Notes under the pieces: model-generated
Databases searched by the model: none
Seen by the model: the letters and a program-made list of their open reading frames with translations, nothing else
Told to the model about the DNA's origin: nothing
Position numbers and translations under genes: made by a program
Assembly (NCBI GenBank): GCA_964510375.1
Contig: CAZEBR010000001.1
Coordinates: forward strand, 37,207 to 101,206
Direction of reading: 5' to 3'
From: Candidatus Hadarchaeota archaeon
GTDB lineage: Archaea; Hadarchaeota; Hadarchaeia; Hadarchaeales; JAGGTB01
DNA: 64,000 bases
In this document: positions 16,992 to 29,283 of the stretch, one piece after another
Layout: each line of letters opens with the position of its first letter
How positions within the stretch are numbered: the first letter of the stretch is position 1

Positions 16992-17203
16992 TATGCTTAG
17001 AGATATATCCTAATCCTGAGCAGGTTTAAGGATTATAAAAATCATTTATTTTTCCTATAACTGGTTCGTGGTCAATCTAATTCCGATAGGCGGTATCAAG
17101 TTATTTGGATTGGGTTTGATTTATTGGTTGGTTCGCATTGCGGAGGAAGCCATGGACTCCAGTATAGATGACCTTTTTGCCTTTGAGGATGAAGAAGAGT
17201 GAT

Positions 17204-18475
17204 CTAATCAGTCCTTTCAAGTTTGAGAAGACAGGAGAGAGCTTCTTCCATGTCTTTGACTATGATGGCTTCTTTTTCCAGAGAAGAAAAGATTTCTTTT
17301 GCCTCACCGTCTGTGAAATCCTTTTCGTCTATGGGAGTGTTTTTGATAACTAAGGTGGGTTTGTGTTTTGCTATCTCCTCTGCCAGCTTCAGATTTTTTA
17401 AATTTCCTCTGCCGAAGGGCATCTCCGTGAGTACTACCGCATCCGACTTTTCGGCAAGTTCTCTGTTTTTTCGATTTTTGTTTTCCGGTATCGCCGCGAA
17501 CGGGGAACATTCAACCGTCTCGATTCCTAGTCGACGGGCTTCCGTGTAGTCGTCGTCCATGGGGGAGAGTACTCCAGCTGAAACTGTGAAACCCTTTCTC
17601 TTAAGAGAGTGCATCAATGAACTTCCGGTGCCGCCCCCGCATATAAAATGTACTCTGAAATCCTTTTTCGCTCCGGTTTTCGTGTCCGTCGCCCTAGAAA
17701 CCGGAGTTACGTAAAGGGAATTTGTTTCTGGGACCCTTCTTATTGATACTTCAGCTCCATAGACTTCTTTGATGTTCTCTTCGGTCAGGACTTCTGGGGG
17801 GTCGCCCTTGGCATATATTTTCCCGTCTTTGAGCAGAATTAGAAAATCACAGTATCTTCCTGCCGTGTTCAGGTCATGGAAGGTAGTTATGGTGCATTTA
17901 TCCTGTTCCTTTGTCAGATTTTTCAATAGGTCCAGGATCACCATTTGATTGCTGACGTCGAGGTGGTTCGTGGGTTCGTCAAGAAGGATTACCGACGGCT
18001 CCTGAGCAAGTGCCTTGGCGATTATGACCCTCTGCTTTTCCCCGCCCGATAGTTCGTTGAAGTCGCGCGAATGGAGCCGCCAGGTGTCGGTTATTTCCAT
18101 GGCCCTCTTTACTACGGACATGTCTTCCTCCCCTTCGTCTTCCAACGGACCGAGATGAGGCGTTCGACCTAAAGTAACCATTTCGAGTGCGGTAAAAGAG
18201 TAGTTGGAGTCGAATTCCTGAGGTACTGTGGCCATGTCCCGGGCGATTTCCTTCTGTTTTGCCCTGCCGATATCTTTTCCGTTTAAGTAGACGGCTCCTT
18301 TCATCGGATTTAGGATTTGGTTTATCGTTTTTAGAAGGGTAGTTTTTCCGGAGGCATTTGGACCTATTATACCGACAAAATCTCCCTTCTCGACGGAAAA
18401 ATCCGCTCCGCGGAGCACTTCGGTGTCCCCGTATCCAGAGGTCAGATTTTCGACTGACAGTCTATCTTCGGACAC
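17204..18475 (-). CDS. ABC transporter ATP-binding protein (FepC/BtuD-like) fused to ~170-aa C-terminal domain of unknown function
   Basis: Walker A GPNASGKTT, signature LSGGEKQR, Walker B ILLDEPTNHLD; C-terminal extension with Gly-rich loop VHFICGGGTGSS not found in canonical FepC/BtuD. Confidence 0.75.
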   Translation of the reverse strand: MSEDRLSVENLTSGYGDTEVLRGADFSVEKGDFVGIIGPNASGKTTLLKTINQILNPMKGAVYLNGKDIGRAKQKEIARDMATVPQEFDSNYSFTALEMVTLGRTPHLGPLEDEGEEDMSVVKRAMEITDTWRLHSRDFNELSGGEKQRVIIAKALAQEPSVILLDEPTNHLDVSNQMVILDLLKNLTKEQDKCTITTFHDLNTAGRYCDFLILLKDGKIYAKGDPPEVLTEENIKEVYGAEVSIRRVPETNSLYVTPVSRATDTKTGAKKDFRVHFICGGGTGSSLMHSLKRKGFTVSAGVLSPMDDDYTEARRLGIETVECSPFAAIPENKNRKNRELAEKSDAVVLTEMPFGRGNLKNLKLAEEIAKHKPTLVIKNTPIDEKDFTDGEAKEIFSSLEKEAIIVKDMEEALSCLLKLERTD

Positions 18476-18486
18476 TCATATCACCG

Positions 18487-19554
18487 TTAGAAAGAATATT
18501 TTTTCCTCCTCAAAAGGTAAATGAAGAAGGGAACTCCCGCCATCGCCGTTATTATCCCCACGGGCAGATCCTCGGGTTGTAGCGCGACGCGCGCGACCGC
18601 ATCAGCCCAGACCAGAAATATCCCGCCACCGAGTGCGGAAGCGGGTATCAGAATACGGTGATCCGAACCGATCAAAATCCTCATCATATGTGGTACGATA
18701 AGCCCCACGAATCCGATTATTCCGCTGACTGAAACCGCTGCCGATGTTATCAATGTTGAGAATATCAGTAAGGTCTTTTTCGTCCTTTCGACGTCGATAC
18801 CGAGTTGGTGGGCCTGTTCTTCGCCGAGCAACATGACGTTCAGTCCTCGGCTGAAGTAGTAGATTACTCCCGATCCCACGACGGTAAAGGGCGCGATTAT
18901 GAGGACGTGGGTCCAGTTTTTTGCCCACAGGCCCCCCATCGTCCAATAAACCATTCCGTGGAGGTCTTCTGCGCCCGTGTACATGATCAGACGCACGGTG
19001 GCGTTGAGGAAGAAGCTGACCGCTATTCCAGTTAGCAGGAGGACGCCTATCGGGAGTCTCCCTTTGATTTTGGCCACATTGTACACTAATAAAATGGCTC
19101 CCAGACCGAATAAGAAGCTCATAAATGGTTTGGTGTAAAAGCCGAAAAAGTTCAAATTAAAAGCAATCGATGATACCGCTCCGAGCGCGGCTCCCGATGA
19201 AACTCCGACCGTGTAGGGCTCCGCCATTGGATTTCTGAAAATTCCCTGAATCGTCGTTCCGGCAACTCCTAACGATGCTCCGACGAAGACACCGACGATT
19301 ACTCTAGGTAGTCTGACCTGTAGGACAATCGATTTAGCGCCCGCCGAAGAGGTTTCGGAAAAAAGGAGGTCCACGAGGGGGATCCGATTCAGTATAATTT
19401 TGGCTGAAAGAATCGGGGAGATTTCGTAAGGACCTATTGTAGTCGAGATCACTACAGTTAAGCAAAGAACTATAATTAGGGTTATGATTATCCAGCGCCA
19501 GTGGACCAGCCTTTGCCGCCAAATCTCCAGCGCGCTTTCCTTTTTTTGAGACAT
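18487..19554 (-). CDS. FecCD-family ABC permease (BtuC/FepD-like)
   Basis: 355 aa, ~9-10 TM, typical FecCD organisation; 11-nt gap to the downstream ATPase gene, same strand. Confidence 0.8.
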   Translation of the reverse strand: MSQKKESALEIWRQRLVHWRWIIITLIIVLCLTVVISTTIGPYEISPILSAKIILNRIPLVDLLFSETSSAGAKSIVLQVRLPRVIVGVFVGASLGVAGTTIQGIFRNPMAEPYTVGVSSGAALGAVSSIAFNLNFFGFYTKPFMSFLFGLGAILLVYNVAKIKGRLPIGVLLLTGIAVSFFLNATVRLIMYTGAEDLHGMVYWTMGGLWAKNWTHVLIIAPFTVVGSGVIYYFSRGLNVMLLGEEQAHQLGIDVERTKKTLLIFSTLITSAAVSVSGIIGFVGLIVPHMMRILIGSDHRILIPASALGGGIFLVWADAVARVALQPEDLPVGIITAMAGVPFFIYLLRRKKYSF

Positions 19555-19689
19555 TACAGTTCTTCCCTCTATTTTGATAATTTTCTGCTTCCCGAGCTTC
19601 GATCTGAATAAGAAGAGAGGAAAAGGGATACATTCTCATTGGCACCCCTTTCCGTCTCAATATGGAAGTAGTTGTTAGCAGTCATATGC

Positions 19690-20691
19690 CTACTCGCTCA
19701 CTTCTGGAATTTCTGTGTAGGAGAGAGAGGGTTTTTCGAACATGTCCGGGTGTAAGATATAACTCAGGACTTTAACCGCGTCTGCAAGCCTCGGTCCGGG
19801 CCGGCTGAAGATATTTTTTGGAACACTGTAGACTTGATTATCTTTAATTGCTTCGACCTCGCTGAAGCCGGGTGTATTTTTGACTTCTTCTACGGTCTTT
19901 CCGGAATGGGGAGGGACCATATAGAATTCTGGGTCCCGGCCGATCACTGTTTCCTTACTGACTGAAATATACCCTTTTTTGTCATCAAAGATGTTTTGGC
20001 CTCCACATATTTCGACTATACTGTCGATGAAGGTGTCGGAACCCATGGTGTAGATTGGGTCCCACCAGACTTGCCAGAATACTCCGGGTCTTTCGCTCGC
20101 GTCTAGATTCTCCGTTCTTTCTTCAACCTCTTGAATTTCCTCTCTCATGTTTTCAGCAATCTCTTTGGCGGTTTTCGAGGCCCCGATGGACTTTCCAATC
20201 GTTTCTATGTCGCTAATTGCATCGGGGATGTTTTCACCTTTGAAGCACAGGACCGGTATTCCGACCTGCTCGAGCTTCTGCACCCGAGATTTCGTGACCG
20301 ACTGGTATCCTCCTACGATGATCAGGTCCGGATTTGTACCGATGACCTTTTCGACGCTGGGCTTGGAATATTCCCCGATTATTTCCAAGCTGCCGTTTTC
20401 CTTTCCTTCTTCCACTTCCGGGGGATAGTCGGCGTAGCTATCCACTCCGACAACTCGGTCACCGGCTCCCAAAGCGAAGACTATCTCCGTGGTGACTGGA
20501 GTTATACAAACGATGTTTTCCGGCCTCCGAGTAATTTCGACGTTCTCTCCCCTGTCGTCCGTCACTGTTATCGGGAATTCAACACTCTTTTCCTCTTCAT
20601 TCTGCCCGCCGATAAGATTGTAAGCACCGACAGCTGAAACCACTAAAACGAGTACTATGGCGAGGTAGGCCGCTTTCTTTTTTCCGTCCAT
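19690..20691 (-). CDS. Periplasmic/extracytoplasmic substrate-binding protein (class III, BtuF/FepB-like) for iron-chelate or corrinoid ABC uptake
   Basis: N-terminal signal anchor AAYLAIVLVLVVSAVGA; binding-protein fold pattern; probable true start ATG at 20691 (ORF track extends to a TTG at 20724). Confidence 0.7.
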   Translation of the reverse strand: MDGKKKAAYLAIVLVLVVSAVGAYNLIGGQNEEEKSVEFPITVTDDRGENVEITRRPENIVCITPVTTEIVFALGAGDRVVGVDSYADYPPEVEEGKENGSLEIIGEYSKPSVEKVIGTNPDLIIVGGYQSVTKSRVQKLEQVGIPVLCFKGENIPDAISDIETIGKSIGASKTAKEIAENMREEIQEVEERTENLDASERPGVFWQVWWDPIYTMGSDTFIDSIVEICGGQNIFDDKKGYISVSKETVIGRDPEFYMVPPHSGKTVEEVKNTPGFSEVEAIKDNQVYSVPKNIFSRPGPRLADAVKVLSYILHPDMFEKPSLSYTEIPEVSE

Positions 20692-20718
20692 GCTGTTTGC
20701 CCTTTTGTTGGATTTTTT

Positions 20719-20734
20719 ATCCAACTAGTTGGAT
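20719..20734. promoter_or_regulatory. Perfect 16-bp palindrome ATCCAACTAGTTGGAT, candidate operator upstream of the ABC uptake operon
   Basis: Read directly; centred ~35 bp upstream of the ATG at 20691, in the only intergenic gap preceding the binding-protein/permease/ATPase operon. Confidence 0.35.
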
Positions 20735-20859
20735 AGTATGTCCAGCCTTTTTTAAGTTTTACCGGATTTATCCCGCGAAATTTGTTAAGTCACAAATTGA
20801 ATTTTCGACATCTGACTTCTTTGAAGCACGGAACAGAATCTCTGAGCTTTCGTTAAGGT

Positions 20860-21489
20860 TCAGAATCCGCGGGTTCTTCTCAAAACAAGGTAAAACCCAA
20901 GGGCTACAGGGATCATGACGAGCCCGATCATAATCCACTGAACTCCCGGAGAATCAATATTGGCAGAGGAGGGATCGGGATCATTTGTTGATCCTTCTGA
21001 ATTTTCTTTTCCGATCATGCTCAACAGCTCATTCTCGTGAATTATCCCAACATGGTAAGATTTGACTTGCCCGTTCTCGACCACGAAGGTTGTAGGCGTG
21101 CCCTCCACACCGTACTCTCGGGCAACTCCCGGGGCCTGAATTATAGGCCATTCGAACTGGTAGTCAGTTTTGAATTTTTCAAGATCTTCCCTCGAGTAGT
21201 ATGACCCTGTTTCCACAGAGAGAAAACTCACACCCCTACTTTCGGAAATTTCGTTCCTTGCCTTTTTCCATTCGTCGATCTCTCTCTGACAGGGCTCGCA
21301 CCCAATGTTCATAAAGTTTAGAATCAGAGTCTCGTTTTCATAATCCTCAAGACTTACCGACTCTTCCTGGGTCTTGACGGTGAACTCTGGAGCTTTTTCG
21401 CCGACCGATGGTTTTTCCAAAGCCCGCACGGTCGGAGTCGAGAGGAAAAGGACCACCATGGCCAAAACGCAAAAGATTCTTTTCTTCAA
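20860..21489 (-). CDS. TlpA/ResA-like thioredoxin-fold thiol-disulfide oxidoreductase with C-terminal membrane anchor
   Basis: CEPC active site in redoxin fold; signal peptide; C-terminal PGV + hydrophobic helix + RRTRGF tail; probable TTG start at 21489 with GGAGGA RBS (ORF track start 21540). Confidence 0.6.
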   Translation of the reverse strand: MKKRIFCVLAMVVLFLSTPTVRALEKPSVGEKAPEFTVKTQEESVSLEDYENETLILNFMNIGCEPCQREIDEWKKARNEISESRGVSFLSVETGSYYSREDLEKFKTDYQFEWPIIQAPGVAREYGVEGTPTTFVVENGQVKSYHVGIIHENELLSMIGKENSEGSTNDPDPSSANIDSPGVQWIMIGLVMIPVALGFYLVLRRTRGF

Positions 21490-21543
21490 AACTATTCCTC
21501 CTCTTTTTCTTAAACGAAACCTTTCTTTTAAACACCTCAATCC

Positions 21544-22692
21544 TTACAGGGTCGTGAAAAGGTACAGGCTCAAGGCAAGGATCACGAGGCCGGAGACGAG
21601 CTCCACACGCTCCCTGTTATCCCTCCACCATTTCTTCGCACGAACCCTCTTACCCGACAGGAAGCACGTCCCGAGCAAGATTGCTAGAAACGGAATTATG
21701 AAAATAAAATTGTAGAGGAGCAATAACGGCACTCCCAAGATGGGAGATTTTGAAATGAAGCTGATGGCCACGAAATAAGGTCCAGAGGTGCACGGGAGCA
21801 GTAACAGGGACGTGGCTAGGCCGAAAATGAAAGCTCCCAACATCCCCTCGTCAAATCTTTCAAGAAGACCTCCGGAACCCATCCCCTCTTTGGCCTTTTC
21901 GCTAAACGAGTCCGGAGTCAGTGTAATTCCGTGATTGAGGAAATAATTAGAAGCCTCCAACAGACCGACTGCAATTCCAAAAACCACGACGAGATACCTG
22001 ACTCCCGGAACCGTGGACACTATCTTCCTCAACCCGAACCCGAGGCCGAGATAGGTCAGGAAAACTCCAAAAACAAAACAAAGGCCAAGTTTCAGAGGGG
22101 AGGAGAGCCGGATGGCGACAACCGTGAGAAACACTAAGAACAGGGTTAGGGCGCACGGGTTTACAGAATCGGCGAAAGCAGCCGTCACCACGGGAAGGAG
22201 CAGACTCGTGAACGTAGGGCTTTCCGGATCCACTTCTCGAAGGAACAGTTTTTCCACGTACTCGGAATTCTTCAACCGGTTATTCTCCCTATTATAGTAG
22301 GCACGTTTTTGGTCGGTCGGTTGATTTTTCCAAAAATTTTCGTCAGAGAAAAGATCACAGTACCCGCCGGTCACAATCCTTAACTCCCCATCCTGAAACA
22401 CCCCAACTAGGGGTGTATCCCCCCGCCTTCCTGGAAAGACCGTCGAGTAGATCCCGTCAAAATATTTAGAATTTGCATTTTCCGAAAGGGAATAGAAAAC
22501 TATAGAACTCTCCCCGTACACGTCCTCCAACGTCTTTTCGACCCTCTCGCAAGAAGAGCAAAACTCGTCACCAAACACCACCACTTTCGAACCAGATTCA
22601 CCTCGAGATCCGGCCCCAGCGACAGGTAAAACGAGCAGAGAAACCAAGAAAACCAACATGAGAGTGGATACGATTTTTTCCCGATTTATCAT
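21544..22692 (-). CDS. CcdA/DsbD-family transmembrane thiol-disulfide transporter fused to N-terminal thioredoxin-like domain
   Basis: CSSC motif in N-terminal soluble domain; CcdA-type TM core with conserved NPC and LPCTSGP cysteines; start probably Met at 22692 (signal peptide MINREKIVSTLMLVFLVSLLVLPVAGAG). Confidence 0.6.
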   Translation of the reverse strand: MINREKIVSTLMLVFLVSLLVLPVAGAGSRGESGSKVVVFGDEFCSSCERVEKTLEDVYGESSIVFYSLSENANSKYFDGIYSTVFPGRRGDTPLVGVFQDGELRIVTGGYCDLFSDENFWKNQPTDQKRAYYNRENNRLKNSEYVEKLFLREVDPESPTFTSLLLPVVTAAFADSVNPCALTLFLVFLTVVAIRLSSPLKLGLCFVFGVFLTYLGLGFGLRKIVSTVPGVRYLVVVFGIAVGLLEASNYFLNHGITLTPDSFSEKAKEGMGSGGLLERFDEGMLGAFIFGLATSLLLLPCTSGPYFVAISFISKSPILGVPLLLLYNFIFIIPFLAILLGTCFLSGKRVRAKKWWRDNRERVELVSGLVILALSLYLFTTL

Positions 22693-22833
22693 TTTATCCC
22701 AGTTTATGTCCTCGAGTTTCTTTTCCAAAATGATACTAATAAGGTTACAAAAAATCGAAAAGAACTTTGTTTTTGTTATGGGTGTAACAAAAATTAGACT
22801 AGGCCTCAAACGAAAACTGTTTATCTCTCAATT

Positions 22834-23115
22834 CTATTTTTTGTATGCGTTTTTTCTGTGAAAAATGGATAAAAACCTGATCTCTCCACCCAAGATGTCG
22901 AAAAATGCTCGATAATCACCGATCCTTAATCTCCAGACACGCTTTTCGGGAATGTATTTTGTACTACCGTGCTGTCTCGGGTCGATAGAATAATCGTTCA
23001 CTTGTTTACCGAACTCTCGAAGTTTTTTCAGAACCCTCTCCCTGGTCTCGCTCGGCAGTTTTTCAAGATTTTCGTCAAATTTTTGAGTACGGGTGAGTTT
23101 AAAAGAGCTCGTCAA
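22834..23115 (-). CDS. RelE/ParE-family type II toxin
   Basis: C-terminal ..RVWRLRIGDYRAFFDILGGEIRFLSIFHRKNAY pattern; likely TTG start at 23115 overlapping antitoxin stop by 17 nt (ORF track start 23181). Confidence 0.5.
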   Translation of the reverse strand: MTSSFKLTRTQKFDENLEKLPSETRERVLKKLREFGKQVNDYSIDPRQHGSTKYIPEKRVWRLRIGDYRAFFDILGGEIRFLSIFHRKNAYKK

Positions 23116-23317
23116 GCGGTTTCCCCTCTTGCTTTCTAGCCTCTTCGATATCCCGTTTTGCCTTTTCAGAAAGCTCGGCATCTTCGACCTTTCGAAGTAG
23201 AGATCTTAGAAACTCGCCTCTAGAGGTAAACCTCCCCGATTCTACCGCCTTGTCGATCCGTTCGATCTGTTCTTCCGTCGCTTTAAAGCTCACGTTTTTC
23301 GTCTCGGACATTGCCAC
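23099..23317 (-). CDS. Ribbon-helix-helix (CopG/RHH) antitoxin
   Basis: 72 aa; N-terminal beta-strand plus two helices (VSFKATEEQIERIDKAVESGRFTSRGEFLRSLL); immediately upstream of and overlapping the RelE-like ORF. Confidence 0.55.
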   Translation of the reverse strand: MAMSETKNVSFKATEEQIERIDKAVESGRFTSRGEFLRSLLRKVEDAELSEKAKRDIEEARKQEGKPLDELF

Positions 23318-23454
23318 ACACCTTCAAGTATTCTATACGATACTTTAGTAATAAAATCTTTTTTTTGGTTTTTGTTGATCAAAAGTGTTCCACTTATACT
23401 ACACTTCTAAAAACACATATTGAAGAAAAAAGGACCGATAGGAGGTGAGACGCT

Positions 23455-24271
23455 TTTGGACAACAAAGTAACCTATGGAGTAATACTAACTATTGTAGTA
23501 ATGATAGCAGGAATTAGCACCTTTGTAATAATCCAAGGAAACAACCCCAACGACACCGAGGACCCTATCAAAGATCCTACAGACAACCAAAACCACATCG
23601 ATGATAATGAAAATGTTGAAAACGAGACCGTCCAGTTCAAATACGTCGTTTCCATGAAGTACACCGACAATAGAGAAAACATACCGAGAGAAGGTCTATC
23701 CATCTATACCCCAATGCCCTTTTTGTGGAGCCCCGATGAAAACATCTTTCAGCATGTTGTGAGGACTGTCGAAAAAAATGTGAAGAGAGTGAAGAGCATC
23801 ACTTGGAAGATTTGGAAAGATAACACTTTACAGATAGAGAATGGTCACGTTAAAGAACTCATAAGTCCGAGAGAACAGAACGTGGACAATTTTTTTAATG
23901 TAGTAGGGCTTGAATGGTCAGGACGGCTTGTATCTACTCTTGCCAAGGAAAACTCTCAAGTAATGTACGAAAATGAAGTACTTAGAGTGAAAATTCCTTT
24001 CAAGGTATCAAAAGAAAATTCAGACATAGTAAGAATACCAGGCGTATTCTTAAACGAAAACCCTAGTAAGATTTCAGGTGAAATTAAAACCTTCAACGTC
24101 AGAAAGGAAGATAATCATCTGACAAATGAGGAGCAGCTCTATCCAGGGAAATGCCGGTCGGTCGTAAAGTTGTGCAGAAAAGAAAACGGGATGTATAGGA
24201 CTATCGAAAAGTACGTTGGTAAACAAACCAGCTCAAATGAATCCACTTTTATACTAGAGAGAACCGAGTGA
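23455..24271 (+). CDS. Hypothetical N-terminally anchored extracytoplasmic protein
   Basis: GGAGGTGA RBS 6 nt before TTG at 23455; TM anchor VILTIVVMIAGISTFVIIQG; AT-rich coding relative to neighbours; no recognisable domain. Confidence 0.4.
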
Positions 24272-24349
24272 TAAACACCTTATTTTTGCCGTTTTTTTAT
24301 ATTGTTTCTTATTTTCGAGTTTAAAGAGGTAGTAGAAGACGGGGGCGTA

Positions 24350-27300
24350 CTAACGTTCGTATTCTGGAGTTGTAATCTTTTTATACTCTTTCCAATCGTA
24401 CTTCGCAGATCCCGGCCAGGGCGGACTGGGGGGAGTTCCTGGATCAGTAACGTACTCATCTGGATCCCCCCACATGTATCCCATGTCAACATCGTCATGT
24501 CCGTCAAGATTGTAATCGTTTACAATGTTCCAGAAGGATTCAAGCACTTTCTCGTTCGAAGCCTCGACAACCCACGGTGTCGGAACAGGGCTACTGTAGG
24601 AAAGCTCTCCTGACGAAATTGGGGTATGAGACTCATCCATAGATATCAACATGTAGCCTTTGTACGTGTGAGTGACGTTTTCGAGATCCTCAGTATAACC
24701 CATACTATTCGTCCTCATGTATCCTCTCGTTATACTCTCACCGAGACCCTTGTTGATCAATTCGATGATATCGGAGGCAGCCCCTTGTTCTGACAGTTCA
24801 TCTTCTGCTAAATTTGATTCGATATATCTTATTATTTTCACTTTTACGCCATCATAATCCCAATACTCGTAAATTTTCACATCACCCGAAATCGATCCAG
24901 GACTGTTGCACAGATAAAATGTGCGGCCTATAAGTTCTGAACTCGATCCTAAATTTGAGCTGCCTTCCCCATCCGTGCCATCTCCTTCTTTGAAGTGTGC
25001 GATTCTCGTCTCGTCTTTGACAATTTTGAAACTGATCGATTTTCGAGTGCTTTTATAGTCGCTGGTGGGGTTGCCGTCCGTCCACTTTTCCCACTCTCCC
25101 TGTGGGTGTGCGGTGAGTGTGACTTTGTTTCCGAATTTTACCTTGTAATTGTCTCCTGCGGCTTGGTTTATTGTCTCTCCCGTTTTGTGGTTCTGGTACT
25201 CTACAGTTCCCGGGCCTTTCTTTCCAAGCTCAAGCTCGTACTCGGCCTGGTAATAGGCGGTGAGGGTTGCTGATTCTCCATTATCGACCGTGACCGTATC
25301 ATCGACCTTTAAAAGTTCGTACTTGGTGCCGTTCATCGTGAACTTTTGGGGCGGGTTCAGCGTGTAAGATCCTGTCGGTACTGGGTAGGTTTGCCCGCTT
25401 TCACCCGTGAAGGGTTGTTCCCCGTTCACGTTCATGGCGTTAAGGCCGAGAGTTTCGCCGGTTCGATTGTCTTTCGCTAGAATGGTGAGGTCGGCGCTTC
25501 CCGGCATGGGTGCTTTGACCTGTCGAGTGTCCAAGATTTCGGTTGTCGTTTCCGGTGATGGTTTGTCGCTTTGAAGGTTCAGGTTGTAGTTTTTGGACTC
25601 GCTCCACACTGTACGGGACTGTGGCGGGTTTGAGGGTGTTCCGATGATCTCTACCGTGTGTGTCGATCCGGTCATTTCGGGATTGGGCTGTACCTTCACG
25701 GTTTTGGGGTTATAGCACGCGTCGCACACTTGGCGACAGTTTTCTTCGACAGTTTCTGTACACGTGTCGTAGCACGTTTCGCAAACTTGGTGACAGTTTT
25801 CGACGGTTTTTGTACAGTTATCGTAACACGTGTCGCACTCTTCGTGGTGGCTACAGCCATAAAGAGCGGAATTGCACTGCCGCCCGTCACAGTCACACTC
25901 CCAAGAATTAGGTCCCCAACTGCAAATGCACACTTCTTCACAGTTACAATCGTGCGGGTTGCACTCGTAAGTGACCGTGGTGTTTTCGCACTCTTCGTGA
26001 CAGCACTCGTGAGGGTTACAGTCATAGGTGCGCGTTGTAGTGTCGCACACCTGGTGACAGTTGCAGTCGTTCGGGGTATAGGTGGGTGTGTGTTCGATCT
26101 CCACCTGCATGCTTCCTTCCGAAACTTCCGAGAGATCGACCGTCCCGCTGTAATTGTTCTTGGAGACGACATCGACGGTGACGCTTTCCGAATTCCAGGG
26201 ACCCGCCTCGTATTCTTGTTCGTATTTTTTCCGCCTGACGAGGTTTTCTACCCTGCGCTTTATCACGCTCAAAGTTCCCGACTTTTCGATCACTGTAGCG
26301 TATTCGCCTCCATTGTTTTGGGCGAACTGTTCGGCTTCAGATTTGTCCAGGAAGGCTTCCGTCCGGAACCACGGGTCGAGAGAATCATATTCGAGGGTTC
26401 CCGAACCGTTCTCGGAGGATACGTGGAAAGTGACATTTTGAACTTCTTCGTGTTCTCTGGCGCTCTGATACTCGGAATAAGTGCCCGTTTTGGTGGTGGC
26501 TTCATCCCATTCTAACGCCCAGTCTCCAGTGCTTAAAACTTGGCGATTGTCGGTTATTTGCCCGGCGTTGCCAGCTTCGGATTTTTTATCGAACCATTCG
26601 GAGTGGTGTGTGCCTTCTTCCCATTCTACTCTGTAATCGTATCCTCCTTCCCAGTGGCCACCGGACACCCACTCGTACTTGTAATCGTAGGTCCAGTTAT
26701 TGCATTCGTCTTTTTCAGTTTTCACGAGATTTCCACTTACGACGCTGCTACTGTAACTGTCCTGCCACCAGGTATCGGTGCAAGTGTCATAACAGGTTTC
26801 ATAGCAGGTGTCGTAACAGGTATCATAGCAAGTCTCGCACTTTTCGTGACAGTTACATTCGTAGGATGAATAACAAGTGTCGTAGCAAGTATCGCAAACT
26901 TCGCCACAGTTACATGAGTAAGTAGAGCTGCACGTGTCGTAGCAGGTATCGCACTCTTCGTGACACTCTTCCTCCTGCCAACAAGTCGTGTATGCGCATT
27001 TGGTTACGGTTTCACAAACCTCGTGACAGTTACAATCGTGCGGATTACAGTCGTAATAGGTAGTACACGTGTCGCACTCGGAGTGACAGTTACAGTCGTG
27101 GGGATTGCAAGGGTATGATCGAGTGCACGTGTCGCACACTTCGTGACAGTTGCAGTCATGCGGGTTGCAATCGTGAGGGTTACAATTGTAAGGATTACAA
27201 TCGTGTGGATTGCACTGGTAGGATTCTTCGAATTTGTACTTGTAGTCCCATTCTGTGCACTCGTCTTTTCTAGTATTGACGAGCGTAAGGTCCGAATAAG

Positions 27301-28336
27301 GATTGTCCGAGTCTAATTTCTCGTCAAACCATTCTGTTTCTTTTTCCAGAATGTAATCGTGCCTTGAGTTCCAGAAACGCTCTATAGTAACATTTCTAAC
27401 GCCAGATTGACTTTGCAATGAGTTTTTCTTGTCCTCAGCAGCAGATTGCGTATCAAGCTCGGTCGAGTGATCACTCCAGGTGGCCCACTCGGCCTTGTAC
27501 TCGATCTCGGGTCTTGAAACGATCTCGCCGTCAAGATCATTATTTGTGGCGTAATTACTTGCAGCGTAGTAGGTGTCGTGTCTTTTACTCTTATGCTCGA
27601 CTTCCTCCCACTCTACCGTGGTCCTGTCCAGAACGTTTTGAGCATAATACTCGGCAAGGTAATAAGTCGCTGTATCCTCCTCAATCTCCCACCCGTCAGT
27701 TTCTTGGGCGGCGTTCTGAAATTTGTTAGTCCATTCGAAATCTTCAAAATCTAAGATGACCTCGTAATTTTCCCAAACTACTCTGTCCTCTATCCATTTA
27801 GTGCTGACAAGCTCTTCCCCTCCTAAAGTATAGTTTCGAGAGATCGAATCAGTAGTTTCTGAAAGTTCTATATCGAAAGGGTCGTAGGTTAGCGGTATCG
27901 AAAAACTGACCTTTCCACCCTTACCCACAGTTTTGGTTTTCGATTTTTCTCCAAACCCTCTCCATCCCCCATCTAGAGGACCGTCTGCCTTTTCGTTCCT
28001 GTTTTTATCACCCGCAATCACCGTCACCGAGTGTAATCCCCCGCTCAGATTGTCAATCTCTATACTAAAATGACCGCTATCGTCTGCAAAGACGTCATCC
28101 CGAACTCTCGTCTCCGAGTTTACCACTATGGTCACGGGGGCATTGCTTTCCGTATGCCCTTCTATTAAAGTGATATCGTCCTTGTCTATAGTAATCTCGT
28201 AGGCTCCATAATCTCTGGTGGCTTTGTCGTTATTTTCTGGAGCATGTACGTTGATTGGAAGGGAAGAAAGCAAAAGAAAAGCCAAAGAAATAGTCACTAA
28301 TACTTTCTTTAAAATTTTAAAATCCCTTTTTCTCAA
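24350..28336 (-). CDS. Giant (1328 aa) secreted protein with two arrays of Cys/His-rich CNPHDC-NCHEVC-DTC-type repeats; function unknown (putative surface/metal-binding protein)
   Basis: Uninterrupted 3987-nt ORF; signal peptide MRKRDFKILKKVLVTISLAFLLLSSLPINVHA; repeats such as CNPHDCNPYNCNPHDCNPHDCNCHEVCDTC and CYDTCYDTCYETCYDTC; no known domain recognised. Confidence 0.7.
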   Translation of the reverse strand: MRKRDFKILKKVLVTISLAFLLLSSLPINVHAPENNDKATRDYGAYEITIDKDDITLIEGHTESNAPVTIVVNSETRVRDDVFADDSGHFSIEIDNLSGGLHSVTVIAGDKNRNEKADGPLDGGWRGFGEKSKTKTVGKGGKVSFSIPLTYDPFDIELSETTDSISRNYTLGGEELVSTKWIEDRVVWENYEVILDFEDFEWTNKFQNAAQETDGWEIEEDTATYYLAEYYAQNVLDRTTVEWEEVEHKSKRHDTYYAASNYATNNDLDGEIVSRPEIEYKAEWATWSDHSTELDTQSAAEDKKNSLQSQSGVRNVTIERFWNSRHDYILEKETEWFDEKLDSDNPYSDLTLVNTRKDECTEWDYKYKFEESYQCNPHDCNPYNCNPHDCNPHDCNCHEVCDTCTRSYPCNPHDCNCHSECDTCTTYYDCNPHDCNCHEVCETVTKCAYTTCWQEEECHEECDTCYDTCSSTYSCNCGEVCDTCYDTCYSSYECNCHEKCETCYDTCYDTCYETCYDTCTDTWWQDSYSSSVVSGNLVKTEKDECNNWTYDYKYEWVSGGHWEGGYDYRVEWEEGTHHSEWFDKKSEAGNAGQITDNRQVLSTGDWALEWDEATTKTGTYSEYQSAREHEEVQNVTFHVSSENGSGTLEYDSLDPWFRTEAFLDKSEAEQFAQNNGGEYATVIEKSGTLSVIKRRVENLVRRKKYEQEYEAGPWNSESVTVDVVSKNNYSGTVDLSEVSEGSMQVEIEHTPTYTPNDCNCHQVCDTTTRTYDCNPHECCHEECENTTVTYECNPHDCNCEEVCICSWGPNSWECDCDGRQCNSALYGCSHHEECDTCYDNCTKTVENCHQVCETCYDTCTETVEENCRQVCDACYNPKTVKVQPNPEMTGSTHTVEIIGTPSNPPQSRTVWSESKNYNLNLQSDKPSPETTTEILDTRQVKAPMPGSADLTILAKDNRTGETLGLNAMNVNGEQPFTGESGQTYPVPTGSYTLNPPQKFTMNGTKYELLKVDDTVTVDNGESATLTAYYQAEYELELGKKGPGTVEYQNHKTGETINQAAGDNYKVKFGNKVTLTAHPQGEWEKWTDGNPTSDYKSTRKSISFKIVKDETRIAHFKEGDGTDGEGSSNLGSSSELIGRTFYLCNSPGSISGDVKIYEYWDYDGVKVKIIRYIESNLAEDELSEQGAASDIIELINKGLGESITRGYMRTNSMGYTEDLENVTHTYKGYMLISMDESHTPISSGELSYSSPVPTPWVVEASNEKVLESFWNIVNDYNLDGHDDVDMGYMWGDPDEYVTDPGTPPSPPWPGSAKYDWKEYKKITTPEYER
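25720..26100 (-). repeat. Coding tandem repeat block 2 (second Cys/His-rich array of giant protein)
   Basis: Same unit types repeated (gtcgcacacttggcgacagtt, gtcgcactcttcgtggtg, ttcgcactcttcgtgacagc). Confidence 0.6.
26760..27230 (-). repeat. Coding tandem repeat block 1 (Cys/His-rich repeat array of giant protein)
   Basis: Reiterated GCA/ACA-punctuated 9-15 nt units on plus strand (reverse complement of TGC/TGT codons), e.g. gtcgcactcttcgtgaca, gtcgtagcaagtatcgca. Confidence 0.6.
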
Positions 28337-28418
28337 ATAAAACCCAAAATATTGATTTTACGAATAATTATAAAATTATTCCTTCTTTGTCAGGGATATA
28401 TTCTATAAATTGCTTTTT

Positions 28419-29162
28419 TTATAAATCAGAATCCCCGTCCGTTTCCGGGATAGGTTCGGCAATTAACAAGACACATTTTTCGCATATATTTCGAATGGTC
28501 TCCTTTTCCAGTATGTTTTGTTCGAAATATTCGTGTATATCTGGCAATATGTTCCAAGTAAAGTAATGGAACTTGATCGTGTCCGAATTCTTTTTATCTT
28601 CGCTGTATTCTGTTACCGATTTCACTGTGTTTTCTATCGAACTTTTGCAACAGTTTCGGACATCATCCGTGGAATCGGAGAATGATGCTCCGTTTTTCAG
28701 ACAGTCTTGAAACTTTTTACCCGTTCTATAGATTAGTTCTCTGTAAAGCTCCAAGATGTCCCGGATGGTCAGCCAGCTCGAGCGAGCTTCAATACTTTCG
28801 ATTTTATTGATGCCTATCCCCTCCGATATTCTGTTTATTAGTTTGTCGTTTAATATCAAAATCGGCAGTTTCAAGTGTGCGCTCAGCATTAGTCCGCGGA
28901 GGTCCGTTAGTGCCACGTTGTGTTCGACTCTGAACATTATCTGTCTGCTTAATTCGTCGTAAATGTCGGGCAAATGGGCGGGGTAAACGTCCCCTTTTCT
29001 GACGAGCTTACTGATGAGGCTGTGCTTTACGGATTCCTTTCTAACCTCGATAAGCTTGGATCTCGATAGCCAAGAATACGTGGAGCTGGGTATGTAAAGG
29101 CCGGAATTTGGAAATAGCTTTTTGGCTTTTTCGAGCGATGTCCTGTCGGTCAAGGCACTCAC
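28419..29162 (-). CDS. Hypothetical protein (247 aa), no recognisable domain
   Basis: Long ORF, AT-rich, located between the giant Cys-rich gene and the cyclophilin-like gene. Confidence 0.4.
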   Translation of the reverse strand: MSALTDRTSLEKAKKLFPNSGLYIPSSTYSWLSRSKLIEVRKESVKHSLISKLVRKGDVYPAHLPDIYDELSRQIMFRVEHNVALTDLRGLMLSAHLKLPILILNDKLINRISEGIGINKIESIEARSSWLTIRDILELYRELIYRTGKKFQDCLKNGASFSDSTDDVRNCCKSSIENTVKSVTEYSEDKKNSDTIKFHYFTWNILPDIHEYFEQNILEKETIRNICEKCVLLIAEPIPETDGDSDL

Positions 29163-29283
29163 GTCACAGACGGTCCCGAAATCCTGTATCGTCAGTTTTA
29201 ATCCCGTTTCCGTTTTCCGGCAAGATGGTTTTTAAGCTCGAAACAATCCGCATTTTTTAAAAGATATTTCCCCAATTTCCCTT

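What the first reader, a model, noticed from the sequence alone, without database searches (positions are those of the whole stretch)
24350..28336. 1328-aa secreted protein with two arrays of novel Cys/His-rich repeats (CNPHDC-NCHEVC-DTC; CYDTCYDTCYETCYDTC)
The ORF has a signal peptide and a mostly acidic, Thr/Glu/Trp-rich extracellular body, with no TM or recognisable sortase tail. Two blocks (about residues 370-520 and 745-870) carry dozens of Cys and His in regular short spacings. Examples are C-x4-C-x-C-x3-C-x2-C units, NPHDC repeats and YDTC repeats. I recognise no known domain. The pattern suggests a dense metal-binding (Zn/Cu/Fe-S-like) or disulfide-knotted surface module. At DNA level this yields imperfect tandem repeats (25720-26100, 26760-27230) that are prone to assembly collapse. 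The gene lies in an AT-richer stretch with other secreted/unknown ORFs, consistent with an accessory surface protein.
Basis: seen in the sequence. Interest (0 to 1): 0.75.

Follow-up and report, generated by a model that had tools for sequence, protein, structure and literature searches.

The report
Cysteine-ladder hairpins in archaeal surface protein
A large secreted protein of a brine-pool archaeon carries two copies of an undescribed cysteine-rich module, also found on phage particles and bacterial surface proteins, whose two halves mirror each other as if zipped together cysteine by cysteine into a long rigid hairpin.

Summary
ORF 24350-28336 (-) encodes a 1328-aa acidic protein with a signal-peptide-like N-terminus. 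Of its 65 Cys, 62 lie in two blocks (res 375-519 and 758-874).

The blocks match no Pfam, NCBIfam, PHROG or PDB entry, but they are not unique. Exhaustive searches found the same grammar, (C-N-P-x-x)n ... (C-Y/W/F/H-x-T)n, in several other contexts:
- Bacteroidota T9SS cargo
- type IV pilin-like proteins
- zinc-ribbon membrane proteins
- proteins of tailed phages

Two results indicate how it folds:
- **Arm lengths match.** The period-5 arm and the period-4 arm have equal rung numbers in 13 of 20 families (permutation p~1e-5). They change in lockstep within families.
- **Spacings mirror.** In the window protein the Cys spacings of the first half mirror those of the second half read backwards (block 1: all 17 intervals, p=0.0002).

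Best reading: each block is a long antiparallel hairpin braced Cys-to-Cys, with 18 and 13 rungs, inserted into loops of a lineage-specific MSBL1/Hadarchaeia surface protein. The rungs are probably disulfides, but metal bridges are not excluded.

The His residues are not conserved ligands. Heme and Fe-S motifs are absent. An assembly artefact is unlikely. AlphaFold2 was uninformative, and no bond has been shown.

The parts
24350..28336 (-). ORF for the 1328-aa secreted, acidic (pI 4.46) protein. Alternative GTG start at 28297 gives the 1315-aa public version.
28241..28336 (-). Signal-peptide-like N-terminus (res 1-32: K/R-rich n-region, hydrophobic core, VHA).
   Evidence: Read from the translation. 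No predictor was available.
27818..28171 (-). N-terminal conserved domain (res 56-173). It is Ig-like, with a sub-threshold Big_6 hit at res 50-115, and is 51% identical to Hadesarchaea homologues.
27228..27283 (-). Copy 1 of a 56-nt direct repeat (res 352-370, LVNTRKDECTEWDYKYKFE) just upstream of block 1. It holds the lone Cys360.
   Evidence: family D7, 73% identity, spacing 555 nt
26780..27214 (-). Cys block 1 (res 375-519): 36 Cys in five units A-E. The units carry 4,1,1,0,0 CNPxx repeats and 0,0,1,1,4 YxTC repeats. Predicted 18-rung antiparallel hairpin (375-519, 380-515 ... 447-452).
27152..27214 (-). Outer period-5 arm of block 1: CNPHD CNPYN CNPHD CNPHD C (res 375-395, 5 rungs).
26780..26830 (-). 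Outer period-4 arm of block 1: CYDT CYDT CYET CYDT C (res 503-519, 5 rungs).
26673..26728 (-). Copy 2 of the 56-nt direct repeat (res 537-555, LVKTEKDECNNWTYDYKYE) just downstream of block 1. It holds the lone Cys545.
26066..26672 (-). Trp/Tyr/Glu-rich scaffold between the blocks (res 556-757). It is homologous to Cys-poor proteins of Hadesarchaea (P0002, L003) and MSBL1 (P0126, weakly L006 464 aa).
25715..26065 (-). Cys block 2 (res 758-874): 26 Cys, a more degenerate copy of the module. It is 41% identical over 107 aa to the single-copy domain of zinc-ribbon membrane protein P0125. Predicted 13-rung hairpin (758-874 ... 814-816).
24350..25714 (-). C-terminal part (res 875-1328). Part of it aligns to the region of the Hadesarchaea homologue (L003) that carries PEGA and carboxypeptidase-regulatory-like Pfam hits. 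It ends in an uncharacterised domain with one lone Cys (1143).
28419..29162 (-). Upstream 247-aa gene, a conserved neighbour. It is 50% identical to the equivalent gene in MSBL1 relative L006. In SAG locus L128 it is fused in one ORF with a scaffold homologue.
23420..24271 (+). Convergent 283-aa membrane-anchored protein of unknown function. It is weakly similar (E 8e-8) to the 272-aa gene at the same position in L006.
20860..22809 (-). Context only. A ResA/TlpA-like exported redoxin (20860-21540) and a 421-aa protein with a CxxC thioredoxin-like domain plus a polytopic membrane domain (21544-22809). This may be a thiol-redox pair in the same island; a link to the Cys protein is inferred, not shown.

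Best explanation
The ORF encodes a lineage-specific surface protein of an MSBL1 (Hadarchaeia) archaeon. Two loops of its Trp/Tyr/Glu-rich scaffold each carry an insertion of a previously undescribed module.

**Module design.** One arm is built of C-N-P-x-x pentapeptides. The other is built of C-(Y/W/F/H)-x-T tetrapeptides. A C-N-C-x3-C-x2-C core can lie between or within them.

**Proposed fold.** The module folds back on itself as an antiparallel hairpin, so that Cys i of the first half faces Cys n+1-i of the second half. The facing cysteines are bonded rung by rung. This gives 18 rungs in block 1 and 13 in block 2.

**Proposed role.** The result would be a rigid rod or knob, resistant to denaturants and proteases, that projects from the host domain. 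Its two ends sit together at the insertion point.

**Shown:** the sequence grammar, its recurrence in unrelated exported and virion proteins, the equal arm lengths, and the mirror-image spacing.

**Inferred:** the physical pairing of the arms, the disulfide chemistry of the rungs, and the structural (stalk or adhesive tip) role.
For: 1. **Same grammar in independent proteins.** An exhaustive phmmer search of res 355-880 against 1.84 billion representatives gave 12 hits. More came from a profile search. A DNA pattern for three CNPxx units found 120 or more metagenome stretches and 39 viral contigs.
2. **Contexts are exported or virion-surface.** They include T9SS tails (P0003, P0133), prepilin N-termini (P0124, P0130), the region after the TM helix of zinc-ribbon proteins (P0125, P0129, P0131, P0132) and signal peptides (P0135, P0142). 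They also include a phage with portal, major head and tail sheath genes (L151) and a gene next to a tail-fibre-like gene (L130).
3. **Arm lengths match.**
   - Rungs in the period-5 arm against the period-4 arm are 9/9, 8/8, 9/9, 6/6, 6/6, 7/7, 5/5, 5/5, 4/4, 9/9 and so on, and 5/5 for window block 1.
   - They are equal in 13 of 20 families and within one in 17 of 20.
   - Permutation p is about 1e-5. Spearman correlation is 0.62, or 0.87 without one outlier.
4. **Lockstep change inside families (my reading of the sequences).**
   - L014, L056 and L033 have 3+3 repeats, against 4+4 in L093 and L118.
   - P0134 has 5/5 against 9/9 in L082, at the same host insertion site.
   - In P0134 the arm order is swapped.
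5. **Mirror symmetry of Cys spacings.**
   - Window block 1 first half: 5,5,5,5,2,4,3,6,5,2,4,3,6,5,2,4,6.
   - Window block 1 second half, reversed: 4,4,4,4,3,4,2,6,4,3,4,2,6,4,3,4,6.
   - The summed difference is 11, against 31 read forwards (p=0.0002).
   - Block 2 gives p=0.016, P0130 gives 0.0003, and P0125, P0129, P0131 and P0132 give 0.0008-0.017.
6. **Even Cys counts.** Both window blocks have an even number (36 and 26).
7. **Flanking repeat.** Block 1 is flanked by a diverged 56-nt direct repeat, as expected if the two ends of an insertion meet.
8. **Scaffold homologues lack the blocks**.
9. **The peptide motif is under selection.** Repeat copies differ mainly at synonymous sites.
Against: - No bond or structure has been observed.
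- AlphaFold2 gave low confidence both for res 355-880 (pLDDT 38.8) and for a compact homologue with a 4-row alignment (47.4). It drew the period-4 arm as a helix (pLDDT about 60), not as a paired ribbon.
- The arm-length rule has exceptions: P0136 is 12/4, P0141 is 5/7, L046 is 5/3, L115 is 7/5, and the L014 family is consistently N = C-1 with odd Cys totals.
- The mirror test is not significant for P0124, P0128, P0134 and L065.
- I chose the family representatives and module boundaries by hand.
- MSBL1 archaea live in anoxic brines (general knowledge), and phage virions assemble in a reducing cytoplasm. Both make disulfides less obvious and favour metal bridges.
- The function in the cell is entirely inferred.
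Confidence: 0.55

Rival explanations
1. Metal-thiolate ladder. The two arms face each other as above, but the rungs are metal ions (Zn, Cu(I), Fe, Cd) bridged by thiolates. The blocks would then be an extracellular metal-sequestering or storage rod rather than a disulfide-braced strut.
For: - Equal arms and mirror spacing fit S-metal-S rungs as well as S-S rungs.
- Cys makes up 22-25% of the blocks, and CxC and CxxC motifs sit at the arm junctions.
- The habitat is anoxic brine and the phage homologues assemble in the cytoplasm, where thiols stay reduced (for lineage, for phage, general knowledge for redox state).
- An iron/B12-type ABC transporter and thiol-redox genes lie in the same island.
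- AlphaFold2 draws the C-x3-C arm as a helix with a Cys stripe. From memory, Cys-lined helices are how Csp copper storage proteins work.
Against: - The His position is not conserved (H, Y, F or V), so there is no Cys/His site.
- Aromatic residues are abundant in the blocks (Tyr 10% in block 1), unlike metallothioneins.
- Many carriers are T9SS cargo, pilin-like proteins and virion proteins, where a structural role is the usual one.
- There is no match to any metal-binding family.
Confidence: 0.25
2. Intermolecular cross-linker. The period-5 arm of one molecule pairs with the period-4 arm of another (or cysteines cross-link at random). This would knit the protein into a sheath or matrix, as high-sulfur keratin-associated proteins do.
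For: - Matching arm lengths are also needed for a swapped pairing.
- P0128 gives a sub-threshold Keratin_B2_2 hit (E 0.014).
- There is no membrane anchor, so retention at the cell surface needs some other attachment.
Against: - Mirror symmetry within one chain, short 5-8 residue connectors in P0142 and P0135, and insertion into host loops with swapped arm order all point to an intramolecular hairpin.
- The even Cys counts per block fit pairing within each block.
Confidence: 0.1
3. No defined structure. The blocks are low-complexity sequence produced by replication slippage or an assembly misjoin, with no function of their own.
For: - The sequence is highly repetitive, and other frames are also open across the blocks.
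- AlphaFold2 gave low confidence.
- The whole protein is known from a single contig.
Against: - One frame stays open through both blocks, and the scaffold on both sides has homologues.
- Copies differ mostly at synonymous sites while the peptide motif is kept.
- The same grammar and arm-length rule recur in unrelated proteins from bacteria, archaea and phages.
- Recurring 5-mers far exceed the shuffle expectation.
Confidence: 0.04
4. Redox cofactor carrier. The blocks bind c-type haems or iron-sulfur clusters and act as an extracellular electron conduit.
For: High Cys and His content. ResA-like and thioredoxin-like membrane genes lie nearby, of the kind used in cytochrome c maturation in bacteria.
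Against: - There are zero CxxCH, CxxxCH, CxxxxCH or CxxCK motifs and zero CxxCxxCxxxC motifs.
- His is replaced by Tyr, Phe or Val in homologues.
- The membrane protein has no significant CcdA/DsbD match.
Confidence: 0.01

Closest known systems
Cyclic cystine ladder of theta-defensins, and the cystine-ladder-like (CLL) loop insertion of Chlamydomonas HAP2
   Same: Two antiparallel strands are cross-braced by parallel disulfides, pairing Cys i with Cys n+1-i. In HAP2 the motif is a species-specific insertion in a loop of an extracellular domain (PMC6327110). This is the arrangement inferred here.
   Different: Those motifs have three rungs in 18-37 residues. Here 5-18 rungs are inferred, the length varies, the two arms have different periods (5 and 4 residues), and the sequence motifs are unrelated. 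The connectivity here is inferred, not solved.
Twin CX3C / CHCH helical hairpins (small Tim proteins, Cox17 family)
   Same: An antiparallel hairpin stapled by juxtaposed disulfides between C-x3-C motifs. The best, non-significant PDB profile match of the module is Tim13 (E 0.074). AlphaFold2 draws the C-x3-C arm as a helix.
   Different: Those proteins have two disulfides, a fixed length and an intermembrane-space location. No partner arm with period 5 and Asn-Pro is known. The sequence match is not significant.
High-sulfur keratin-associated proteins (pentapeptide C-C-x-P-x repeats)
   Same: Cys-rich pentapeptide repeats containing Pro. P0128 gives a sub-threshold Pfam Keratin_B2_2 hit.
   Different: They are eukaryotic and intracellular, and they form intermolecular matrix cross-links. 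They have no second arm of period 4 and no arm-length matching. The window protein gives no hit.
Metallothioneins and Csp copper storage proteins
   Same: Very high Cys content with CxC, CxxC and CxxxC spacings. In Csp proteins the Cys line helices (from memory).
   Different: There is no sequence match. The blocks are rich in Tyr, Trp and His-for-Tyr positions that metallothioneins lack. The module sits in large exported or virion proteins.
Granulin and insect beta-helical antifreeze proteins (disulfide-laddered repeats)
   Same: Regular stacks of disulfides along a repetitive, Thr/Cys-rich extracellular scaffold (from memory).
   Different: The Cys patterns and folds differ (stacked beta-hairpins, 12-residue beta-helix coils). 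No match was found in Pfam or PDB searches.

Membership tests
Undescribed 'CNP / CYxT' two-arm Cys module (no name in Pfam, NCBIfam or PHROGs) | An arm of tandem C-N-P-x-x pentapeptides, often ending in C-N-C | tested here: met
   Res 375-397 hold four such units then CNC. Further CNPH(D/E) units lie at 410, 430, 773 and 792. The same arm occurs in P0003, P0124, P0127, P0128, P0130, P0133-P0142 and many loci.
Undescribed 'CNP / CYxT' two-arm Cys module (no name in Pfam, NCBIfam or PHROGs) | A second arm of tandem C-(Y/W/F/H)-x-T tetrapeptides | tested here: met
   Res 503-519 read CYDT CYDT CYET CYDT C. Single YDTC units follow the cores at 465, 484, 837 and 855.
Undescribed 'CNP / CYxT' two-arm Cys module (no name in Pfam, NCBIfam or PHROGs) | Equal number of rungs in the two arms | tested here: met
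   Block 1 is 5/5 for the outer arms and 18/18 Cys overall. Block 2 is 13/13 Cys. Across the family, arms are equal in 13 of 20 families, p about 1e-5.
Undescribed 'CNP / CYxT' two-arm Cys module (no name in Pfam, NCBIfam or PHROGs) | Mirror-image Cys spacing of the two halves | tested here: met
   Block 1 p=0.0002 and block 2 p=0.016. The same holds in P0130, P0125, P0129, P0131, P0132 and L082.
Undescribed 'CNP / CYxT' two-arm Cys module (no name in Pfam, NCBIfam or PHROGs) | Located in an exported, surface or virion protein | tested here: met
   The window protein has a signal-peptide-like N-terminus. Other carriers have T9SS tails, prepilin motifs, a position after a TM helix, or lie in phage structural gene clusters.
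Cystine ladder (theta-defensin type / HAP2 CLL) | Parallel disulfides joining Cys i to Cys n+1-i of two antiparallel strands | not testable with these tools
   Mirror spacing and equal arms are consistent with it. No bond is observed and AlphaFold2 was low confidence.
c-type (multi)haem cytochrome | CxxCH (or CxxxCH, CxxxxCH, CxxCK) haem-attachment motifs | tested here: not met
   No occurrence in the 1328 aa. The recurring motif is C-N-C-H.
4Fe-4S ferredoxin-type cluster binding | CxxCxxCxxxC motif | tested here: not met
   No occurrence. No Pfam Fer4 hit.
Metallothionein | Small Cys-rich protein essentially lacking aromatic residues, with conserved CxC/CxxC clusters that bind metal | tested here: not met
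   Cys content fits (22-25%), but block 1 has 10% Tyr plus Trp and His. It is part of a 151-kDa protein and gives no family hit. Metal binding itself cannot be tested here.
Keratin-associated high-sulfur protein (Pfam Keratin_B2 / Keratin_B2_2) | Match to the family profile above the gathering score | tested here: not met
   The window protein and its excised blocks give no hit at E up to 10. P0128 scores only 15.7 bits against a cut-off of 27.
Pentapeptide repeat proteins (A(D/N)LXX quadrilateral beta-helix) | Match to the Pfam Pentapeptide profiles; central Leu/Phe in each unit | tested here: not met
   No Pfam hit. The central residue here is Pro.
Bacterial Ig-like domain Big_6 (N-terminal domain only) | Match above the gathering score (27.6 bits) | tested here: inconclusive
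   22.1 bits, E 1.9e-4, at res 50-115. The Hadesarchaea homologue scores 23.3 bits at the aligned place.
Hadarchaeia Trp/Tyr-rich secreted scaffold family (unnamed) | Sequence homology of the non-Cys parts to P0002, L003 and P0126 | tested here: met
   51% identity over res 56-173. Further segments match at res 549-741 and 882-1029. P0126 matches res 550-632 of the protein (query positions 196-278) at E 4e-7.

The most novel reading that the evidence does not exclude
The ladder rungs are not disulfides but a continuous chain of thiolate-bridged metal ions. The module would then be a length-programmable linear metal rod, for storage or even conduction. It would be displayed on the surface of an anaerobic brine archaeon, built into phage particles in the reducing cytoplasm, and spread between bacteria, archaea and viruses as an insertable hairpin.
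Probability: 0.12. Interest if true: 0.85.

Novelty: new variant of a known kind. Interest (0 to 1): 0.62.

Why it matters
If the inference holds, this is a new protein building block. It would be a hairpin whose length is set by adding one pentapeptide to one arm and one tetrapeptide to the other, braced at every step by a cysteine pair.

- **Scale.** It would be by far the longest cystine ladder inferred so far: 18 rungs here, against 3 in theta-defensins.
- **Distribution.** It is shared by phage virion proteins, Bacteroidota T9SS cargo, pilin-like proteins and an archaeal surface protein. This suggests a mobile stability module for harsh extracellular conditions.
- **Annotation.** It would give a name and a structural hypothesis to a set of currently unannotated proteins.
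- **Engineering.** It offers a simple, testable design for rigid spacers of programmable length.
- **Biology of MSBL1.** It marks a fast-evolving surface-protein locus in an uncultured lineage about whose cell envelope little appears to be known.

Tried and rejected
- **Family libraries.** Pfam, NCBIfam and PHROGs found nothing in the Cys regions. This covered the whole protein, the excised blocks and more than 20 module-bearing homologues.
- **PDB sequence and profile searches.** Nothing significant; the best match was Tim13 at E 0.074.
- **Literature string search.** Six motif strings returned 0 papers. Two keyword searches found nothing relevant.
- **AlphaFold2.** One run on res 355-880 without an alignment and one on a compact homologue with 4 rows were both low confidence. 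No fold search was therefore attempted.
- **Haem and Fe-S readings.** Rejected on motif counts.
- **His as a metal ligand.** Rejected because that position varies among H, Y, F and V in homologues.
- **CcdA/DsbD identity of the 421-aa neighbour.** I suspected it from NPC and LPCTSGP motifs in membrane helices. It is not supported: DsbD E 0.29, no Pfam DsbD hit, no PDB hit.
- **DNA inverted repeats as the cause of equal arms.** Rejected by reasoning. The arms have 15-nt and 12-nt periods and encode different peptides. Mirror order at protein level cannot come from DNA inversion.
- **Profile search through the word index.** It returned only 14 proteins and missed known members, so it undercounts the family.
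- **Most short ORFs hit by the DNA pattern.** They lack a second arm. They are probably unrelated 15-nt tandem repeats or fragments, and were not counted.
The Tyr/Arg-rich insertion of the Hadesarchaea homologue lies at the position of window res 574-577, not at the block 1 site.
- **Source genome.** It was not among the species representatives scanned, and the exact protein gave no encoding contig.

Full report
**1. Observation**

The ORF at 24350..28336 on the minus strand is real: 1328 aa with a TTG start. A public protein identical over 1315 aa starts 13 codons further in.

The N-terminus (MRKRDFKILKKVLVTISLAFLLLSSLPINVHA) reads as a signal peptide. There is no later hydrophobic stretch of 18 or more residues, and the pI is 4.46.

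Of 65 Cys, 62 lie in two blocks. Residues 375-519 hold 36 Cys and residues 758-874 hold 26. The other long ORFs of the window average about 1% Cys. Block 1 has 40 recurring 5-mers, against 0.2 expected from shuffles.

Tandem Repeats Finder reports imperfect arrays with periods 60, 54, 24/12 and 15 nt inside both blocks. The repeat families are shared between the two blocks, so the blocks are paralogous.

Pfam gives only a sub-threshold Ig-like (Big_6) hit at res 50-115, and NCBIfam gives only two marginal hits in the same N-terminal region. Neither finds anything in the blocks, even when these are searched alone.

Two details of the finding need correcting:
- The gene has the same GC as the window (0.477 against 0.470). 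Only its flanks are AT-richer.
- The repeat copies are diverged, mostly at third codon positions. Between two units there are 9 synonymous and 2 non-synonymous codon changes. This argues against recent slippage or assembly collapse. It shows selection on the peptide motif.

**2. Organism and locus**

Neighbouring genes are archaeal: RFC, family B polymerase, NurA/HerA and TYW2. The isoleucyl-tRNA synthetase is 69-76% identical to its closest relatives. The named ones among these are candidate division MSBL1 single-cell genomes and Hadarchaeia MAGs.

In two close relatives the order IleRS, phosphoesterase, PRC, TYW2, cyclophilin-like ... HerA, NurA is conserved. The stretch between the cyclophilin-like gene and HerA differs:
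- Locus L004 has only a 93-aa ORF there.
- Locus L006 has three genes of 259, 464 and 272 aa.
- The window has about 12.3 kb (16992-29283).

The L006 259-aa protein is 50% identical to the window's upstream 247-aa gene. The 272-aa protein is weakly similar to the window's 283-aa membrane-anchored neighbour. The 464-aa secreted protein matches only a short piece of the 1328-aa protein.

In an MSBL1 single-cell genome (L128), a 752-aa Cys-poor scaffold homologue sits next to the cyclophilin-like gene. This is therefore a variable surface-protein locus, and only the window's version carries Cys blocks.

The rest of the island holds four things:
- an iron/B12-type ABC transporter
- a ResA/TlpA-like redoxin
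- a thioredoxin-like membrane protein
- a ParD/ParE pair

**3. The scaffold**

Outside the blocks the protein is homologous to Cys-poor proteins of Hadesarchaea (P0002 and L003, 1066-1096 aa). Identity is 51% over res 56-173, with weaker matches over res 549-741 and 882-1029.

In the alignment the two Cys blocks are insertions relative to these proteins. Block 1 is flanked by a 56-nt direct repeat at 73% identity (27228-27283 and 26673-26728). It encodes LV(N/K)T(R/E)KDEC..W.Y.YK(F/Y)E, and each copy holds one lone Cys, at 360 and 545.

**4. The blocks belong to a dispersed, undescribed module**

An exhaustive phmmer search of res 355-880 against 1.84 billion representative proteins gave 12 hits at E up to 1e-3. 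Apart from the protein itself and one scaffold homologue, all hits match the Cys blocks.

| Carrier | Proteins | Evidence for context |
|---|---|---|
| Bacteroidota T9SS cargo | P0003, P0133 | |
| Prepilin-type N-terminus, module at the C-terminus | P0124, P0130 | |
| N-terminal zinc ribbons, one predicted TM helix, then a domain containing CNPHDCNCHEVC ... CDTCYETC | P0125, P0129, P0131, P0132 | |
| Small proteins | P0127, P0128 | |

Block 2 aligns to the P0125 domain at 41% identity over 107 aa (E 2e-12 pairwise).

Further members came from three searches:
- A profile search added P0134-P0142.
- A DNA pattern for three CNPxx units hit at least 120 metagenome stretches, where the scan stopped at its limit. 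Of these, 17 distinct ORFs carry both arms.
- The same pattern hit 39 predicted viral contigs. About two dozen ORFs of 100 aa or more there carry both arms.

Two viral loci were checked. L151 has portal, major head and tail sheath genes, with the module gene between head and tail genes. In L130 the module gene sits next to a tail-fibre-like gene.

None of these proteins has a Pfam, NCBIfam or PHROG hit over the module. No solved structure matches. Six motif strings occur in no paper of the library.

**5. Grammar**

The module has three elements:
- an arm of C-N-P-x-x pentapeptides, where position 4 is H, Y, F or V
- often a C-N-C-x3-C-x2-C core
- an arm of C-(Y/W/F/H)-x-T tetrapeptides

The connector between the arms ranges from about 6 to more than 100 residues. 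In P0134 and several phage proteins the tetrapeptide arm comes first.

Because His alternates with Tyr, Phe and Val, it is not a conserved ligand. The protein has no CxxCH-type and no CxxCxxCxxxC motif.

**6. Evidence that the arms pair**

*(a) Arm lengths match.* The number of rungs in the longest period-5 run against the longest period-4 run is:

| Protein | Period-5 / period-4 rungs |
|---|---|
| P0124 | 9/9 |
| P0127 | 8/8 |
| P0128 | 9/9 |
| P0130 | 6/6 |
| P0133 | 6/6 |
| P0135 | 7/7 |
| P0134 | 5/5 |
| P0142 | 5/5 |
| P0139 | 4/4 |
| L082 | 9/9 (4+5 against 9) |
| L116 | 6/6 |
| Window block 1 | 5/5 |

Using one representative for each of 20 families, the arms are equal in 13 and within one in 17. 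Permutation gives p about 1e-5. Spearman correlation is 0.62, or 0.87 without the eukaryote-like outlier P0136.

*(b) The arms change in lockstep within families.* This rests on my reading of the sequences.
- L014, L056 and L033 have three pentapeptides and three tetrapeptides. L093 and L118 have four and four.
- P0134 (5/5) and L082 (9/9) carry the module at the same place in a homologous host domain.

*(c) The spacings mirror each other.* Each module's cysteines were split at the midpoint. The spacings of the first half were then compared with those of the second half read backwards.
- Window block 1 first half: 5,5,5,5,2,4,3,6,5,2,4,3,6,5,2,4,6.
- Window block 1 second half, reversed: 4,4,4,4,3,4,2,6,4,3,4,2,6,4,3,4,6.
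- All 17 intervals follow one rule: 5 pairs with 4, 2 with 3, 4 with 4, 3 with 2, and 6 with 6.
- The summed difference is 11, against 31 read forwards and 25 on average for permutations (p=0.0002).
- Equivalently, units A-E of block 1 carry 4,1,1,0,0 pentapeptides and 0,0,1,1,4 tetrapeptides.
- Block 2 follows the rule for its first nine intervals (p=0.016).
- The same mirror holds in P0130 (7,5,5,5,5,5,2,13,5,2,4 against 6,4,4,4,4,4,3,12,4,3,4; p=0.0003).
- It also holds in the zinc-ribbon family. There P0131, P0125 and P0129 add (5,9) steps to one half and (4,8) steps to the other in step (p 0.0008-0.017).

*(d) Cys counts are even.* Both window blocks have an even number (36 and 26).

A mirror order of two different peptide motifs cannot arise from DNA inversion. 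The arms also have different DNA periods (15 and 12 nt). A structural constraint is therefore the simplest cause: the two halves run antiparallel, and Cys i faces Cys n+1-i.

This arrangement also brings the two ends of the module together. That suits an insertion into a host loop and the flanking repeat of block 1. Cys360 and Cys545 could form a further rung at its base.

**7. What is not shown**

- No bond is observed.
- AlphaFold2 was uninformative. pLDDT was 38.8 for res 355-880 without an alignment. It was 47.4 for the P0135 module with four rows. The tetrapeptide arm was drawn as a helix at pLDDT about 60.
- The arm rule has exceptions. P0136 is 12/4, P0141 is 5/7, L046 is 5/3 and L115 is 7/5. 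The L014 family is consistently one short, with odd Cys totals.
- The mirror test is not significant for P0124, P0128, P0134 and L065.
- I picked the families and module boundaries by hand.

**8. Disulfide or metal**

Most carriers are exported, which favours disulfides. A laddered hairpin also has precedents. Theta-defensins have three parallel disulfides. The cystine-ladder-like insertion in a loop of algal HAP2 is similar (PMC6327110).

Against this, MSBL1 archaea live in anoxic brines (general knowledge). Phage particles are built in a reducing cytoplasm. In both settings thiolate-metal-thiolate rungs would be at least as plausible.

The ResA-like redoxin and the thioredoxin-like membrane protein lie three to four genes away. 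They could supply reducing power for disulfide shuffling or for keeping thiols free. The link is only positional, and the membrane protein has no significant CcdA/DsbD match.

My estimates are about 0.75 that the arms pair as a ladder and, given pairing, a little better than even that the rungs are disulfides.

**9. Verdict**

The emphasis on His was also misplaced, as were the AT-richness and the assembly risk.

The most likely account is this:
- It is an accessory surface protein of an MSBL1 archaeon.
- It has acquired two copies of a mobile cysteine-ladder hairpin of programmable length.
- Phage virion proteins and bacterial secreted proteins use the same module.

The module is a new variant of the known class of disulfide-laddered extracellular motifs. 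It is unusual for its length, its two unequal periods and its wide but sparse distribution. Experimental mapping of the cysteine connectivity is the decisive missing step.

Noticed in passing
window 16992-29283: A stretch of about 12.3 kb between HerA and a cyclophilin-like gene is absent from relative L004, which has only a 93-aa ORF there. L006 has a three-gene cassette instead. The window's stretch holds an ABC transporter, redox genes, a toxin-antitoxin pair and the Cys-rich gene, so it behaves as a variable island.
   Followed up: partly
window 22834-23317 (-): A complete type II toxin-antitoxin pair. The toxin is ParE (115 aa, Pfam E 3e-10). An overlapping upstream 72-aa ORF (23099-23317) reads like a ribbon-helix-helix ParD/CopG antitoxin.
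   Followed up: partly
window 20860-22809 (-): A ResA/TlpA-like redoxin (226 aa) lies next to a 421-aa protein. The latter has a CxxC thioredoxin-like domain and a polytopic membrane part with Cys in NPC and LPCTSGP contexts. It looks CcdA-like by eye, but no profile or PDB match supports this (DsbD E 0.29).
   Followed up: partly
window 17204-20724 (-): An FecCD-type ABC transporter with its ATPase and a BtuF-like substrate-binding protein. The binding protein's best NCBIfam match is the PGF-CTERM-anchored binding-protein family, but it scores below that family's cut-off.
   Followed up: no
window 28297-28336: The start codon is ambiguous: TTG at 28336 (1328 aa, with a K/R-rich n-region) or GTG at 28297 (the 1315-aa public version). 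An AT-rich TATA-like stretch lies about 35 nt upstream of the TTG.
   Followed up: no
window 25658-26515 (+), 25696-26172 (-), 26540-26925 (+): Long ORFs are open in other frames and on the other strand inside the Cys blocks. They are most likely by-products of the repeats' stop-poor composition, since homologues support only the Cys frame.
   Followed up: partly
L128 988-3246 (MSBL1 single-cell genome GCA_001549095.1): Here a homologue of the window's upstream 247-aa gene and a Cys-poor scaffold homologue form one 752-aa ORF without a signal peptide. This could be a real fusion, a deletion or an assembly or gene-calling effect.
   Followed up: no
L003 3848-7048 (Hadesarchaea AUK037), protein res ~375-430: This scaffold homologue carries a Tyr/Arg-rich low-complexity insertion (YVKYYRIERYVRYYKY...YGYRKVPVY) that its close relative P0002 has only in short form. 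It sits at the position of window res 574-577. A second loop of the scaffold therefore also tolerates repetitive insertions.
   Followed up: partly
P0134; L131, L139, L166; L132, L150, L151, L156: In several proteins, many from predicted phages, the module is circularly permuted, with the tetrapeptide arm before the CNPxx arm. P0134 and L082 have opposite arm orders at the same host insertion site.
   Followed up: partly
L151 5427-6530; L130 7939-9015: The module occurs in tailed-phage genomes, between major head and tail sheath genes in L151 and beside a tail-fibre-like gene in L130. Two further matches lie on contigs labelled as giant-virus MAGs (L133, L148); these were not examined.
   Followed up: partly
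P0143: A weak hit consisting mainly of CYxT-like repeats carries a precomputed Pfam accession, PF27846.1. That accession gave no hit in the local Pfam copy. The window protein and the clear module proteins carry no precomputed Pfam entry. I could not find out what PF27846 is.
   Followed up: partly
L045 (metagenome), ORF of 160 aa: A different Cys/Pro repeat (CPCNP CPCNP ...) in a signal-peptide-bearing protein matched the DNA pattern. It does not follow the two-arm grammar.
   Followed up: no
window 13306-14145 (+): A 279-aa protein with a C-terminal double zinc ribbon. It is unrelated in architecture to the zinc-ribbon proteins that carry the Cys module.
   Followed up: no
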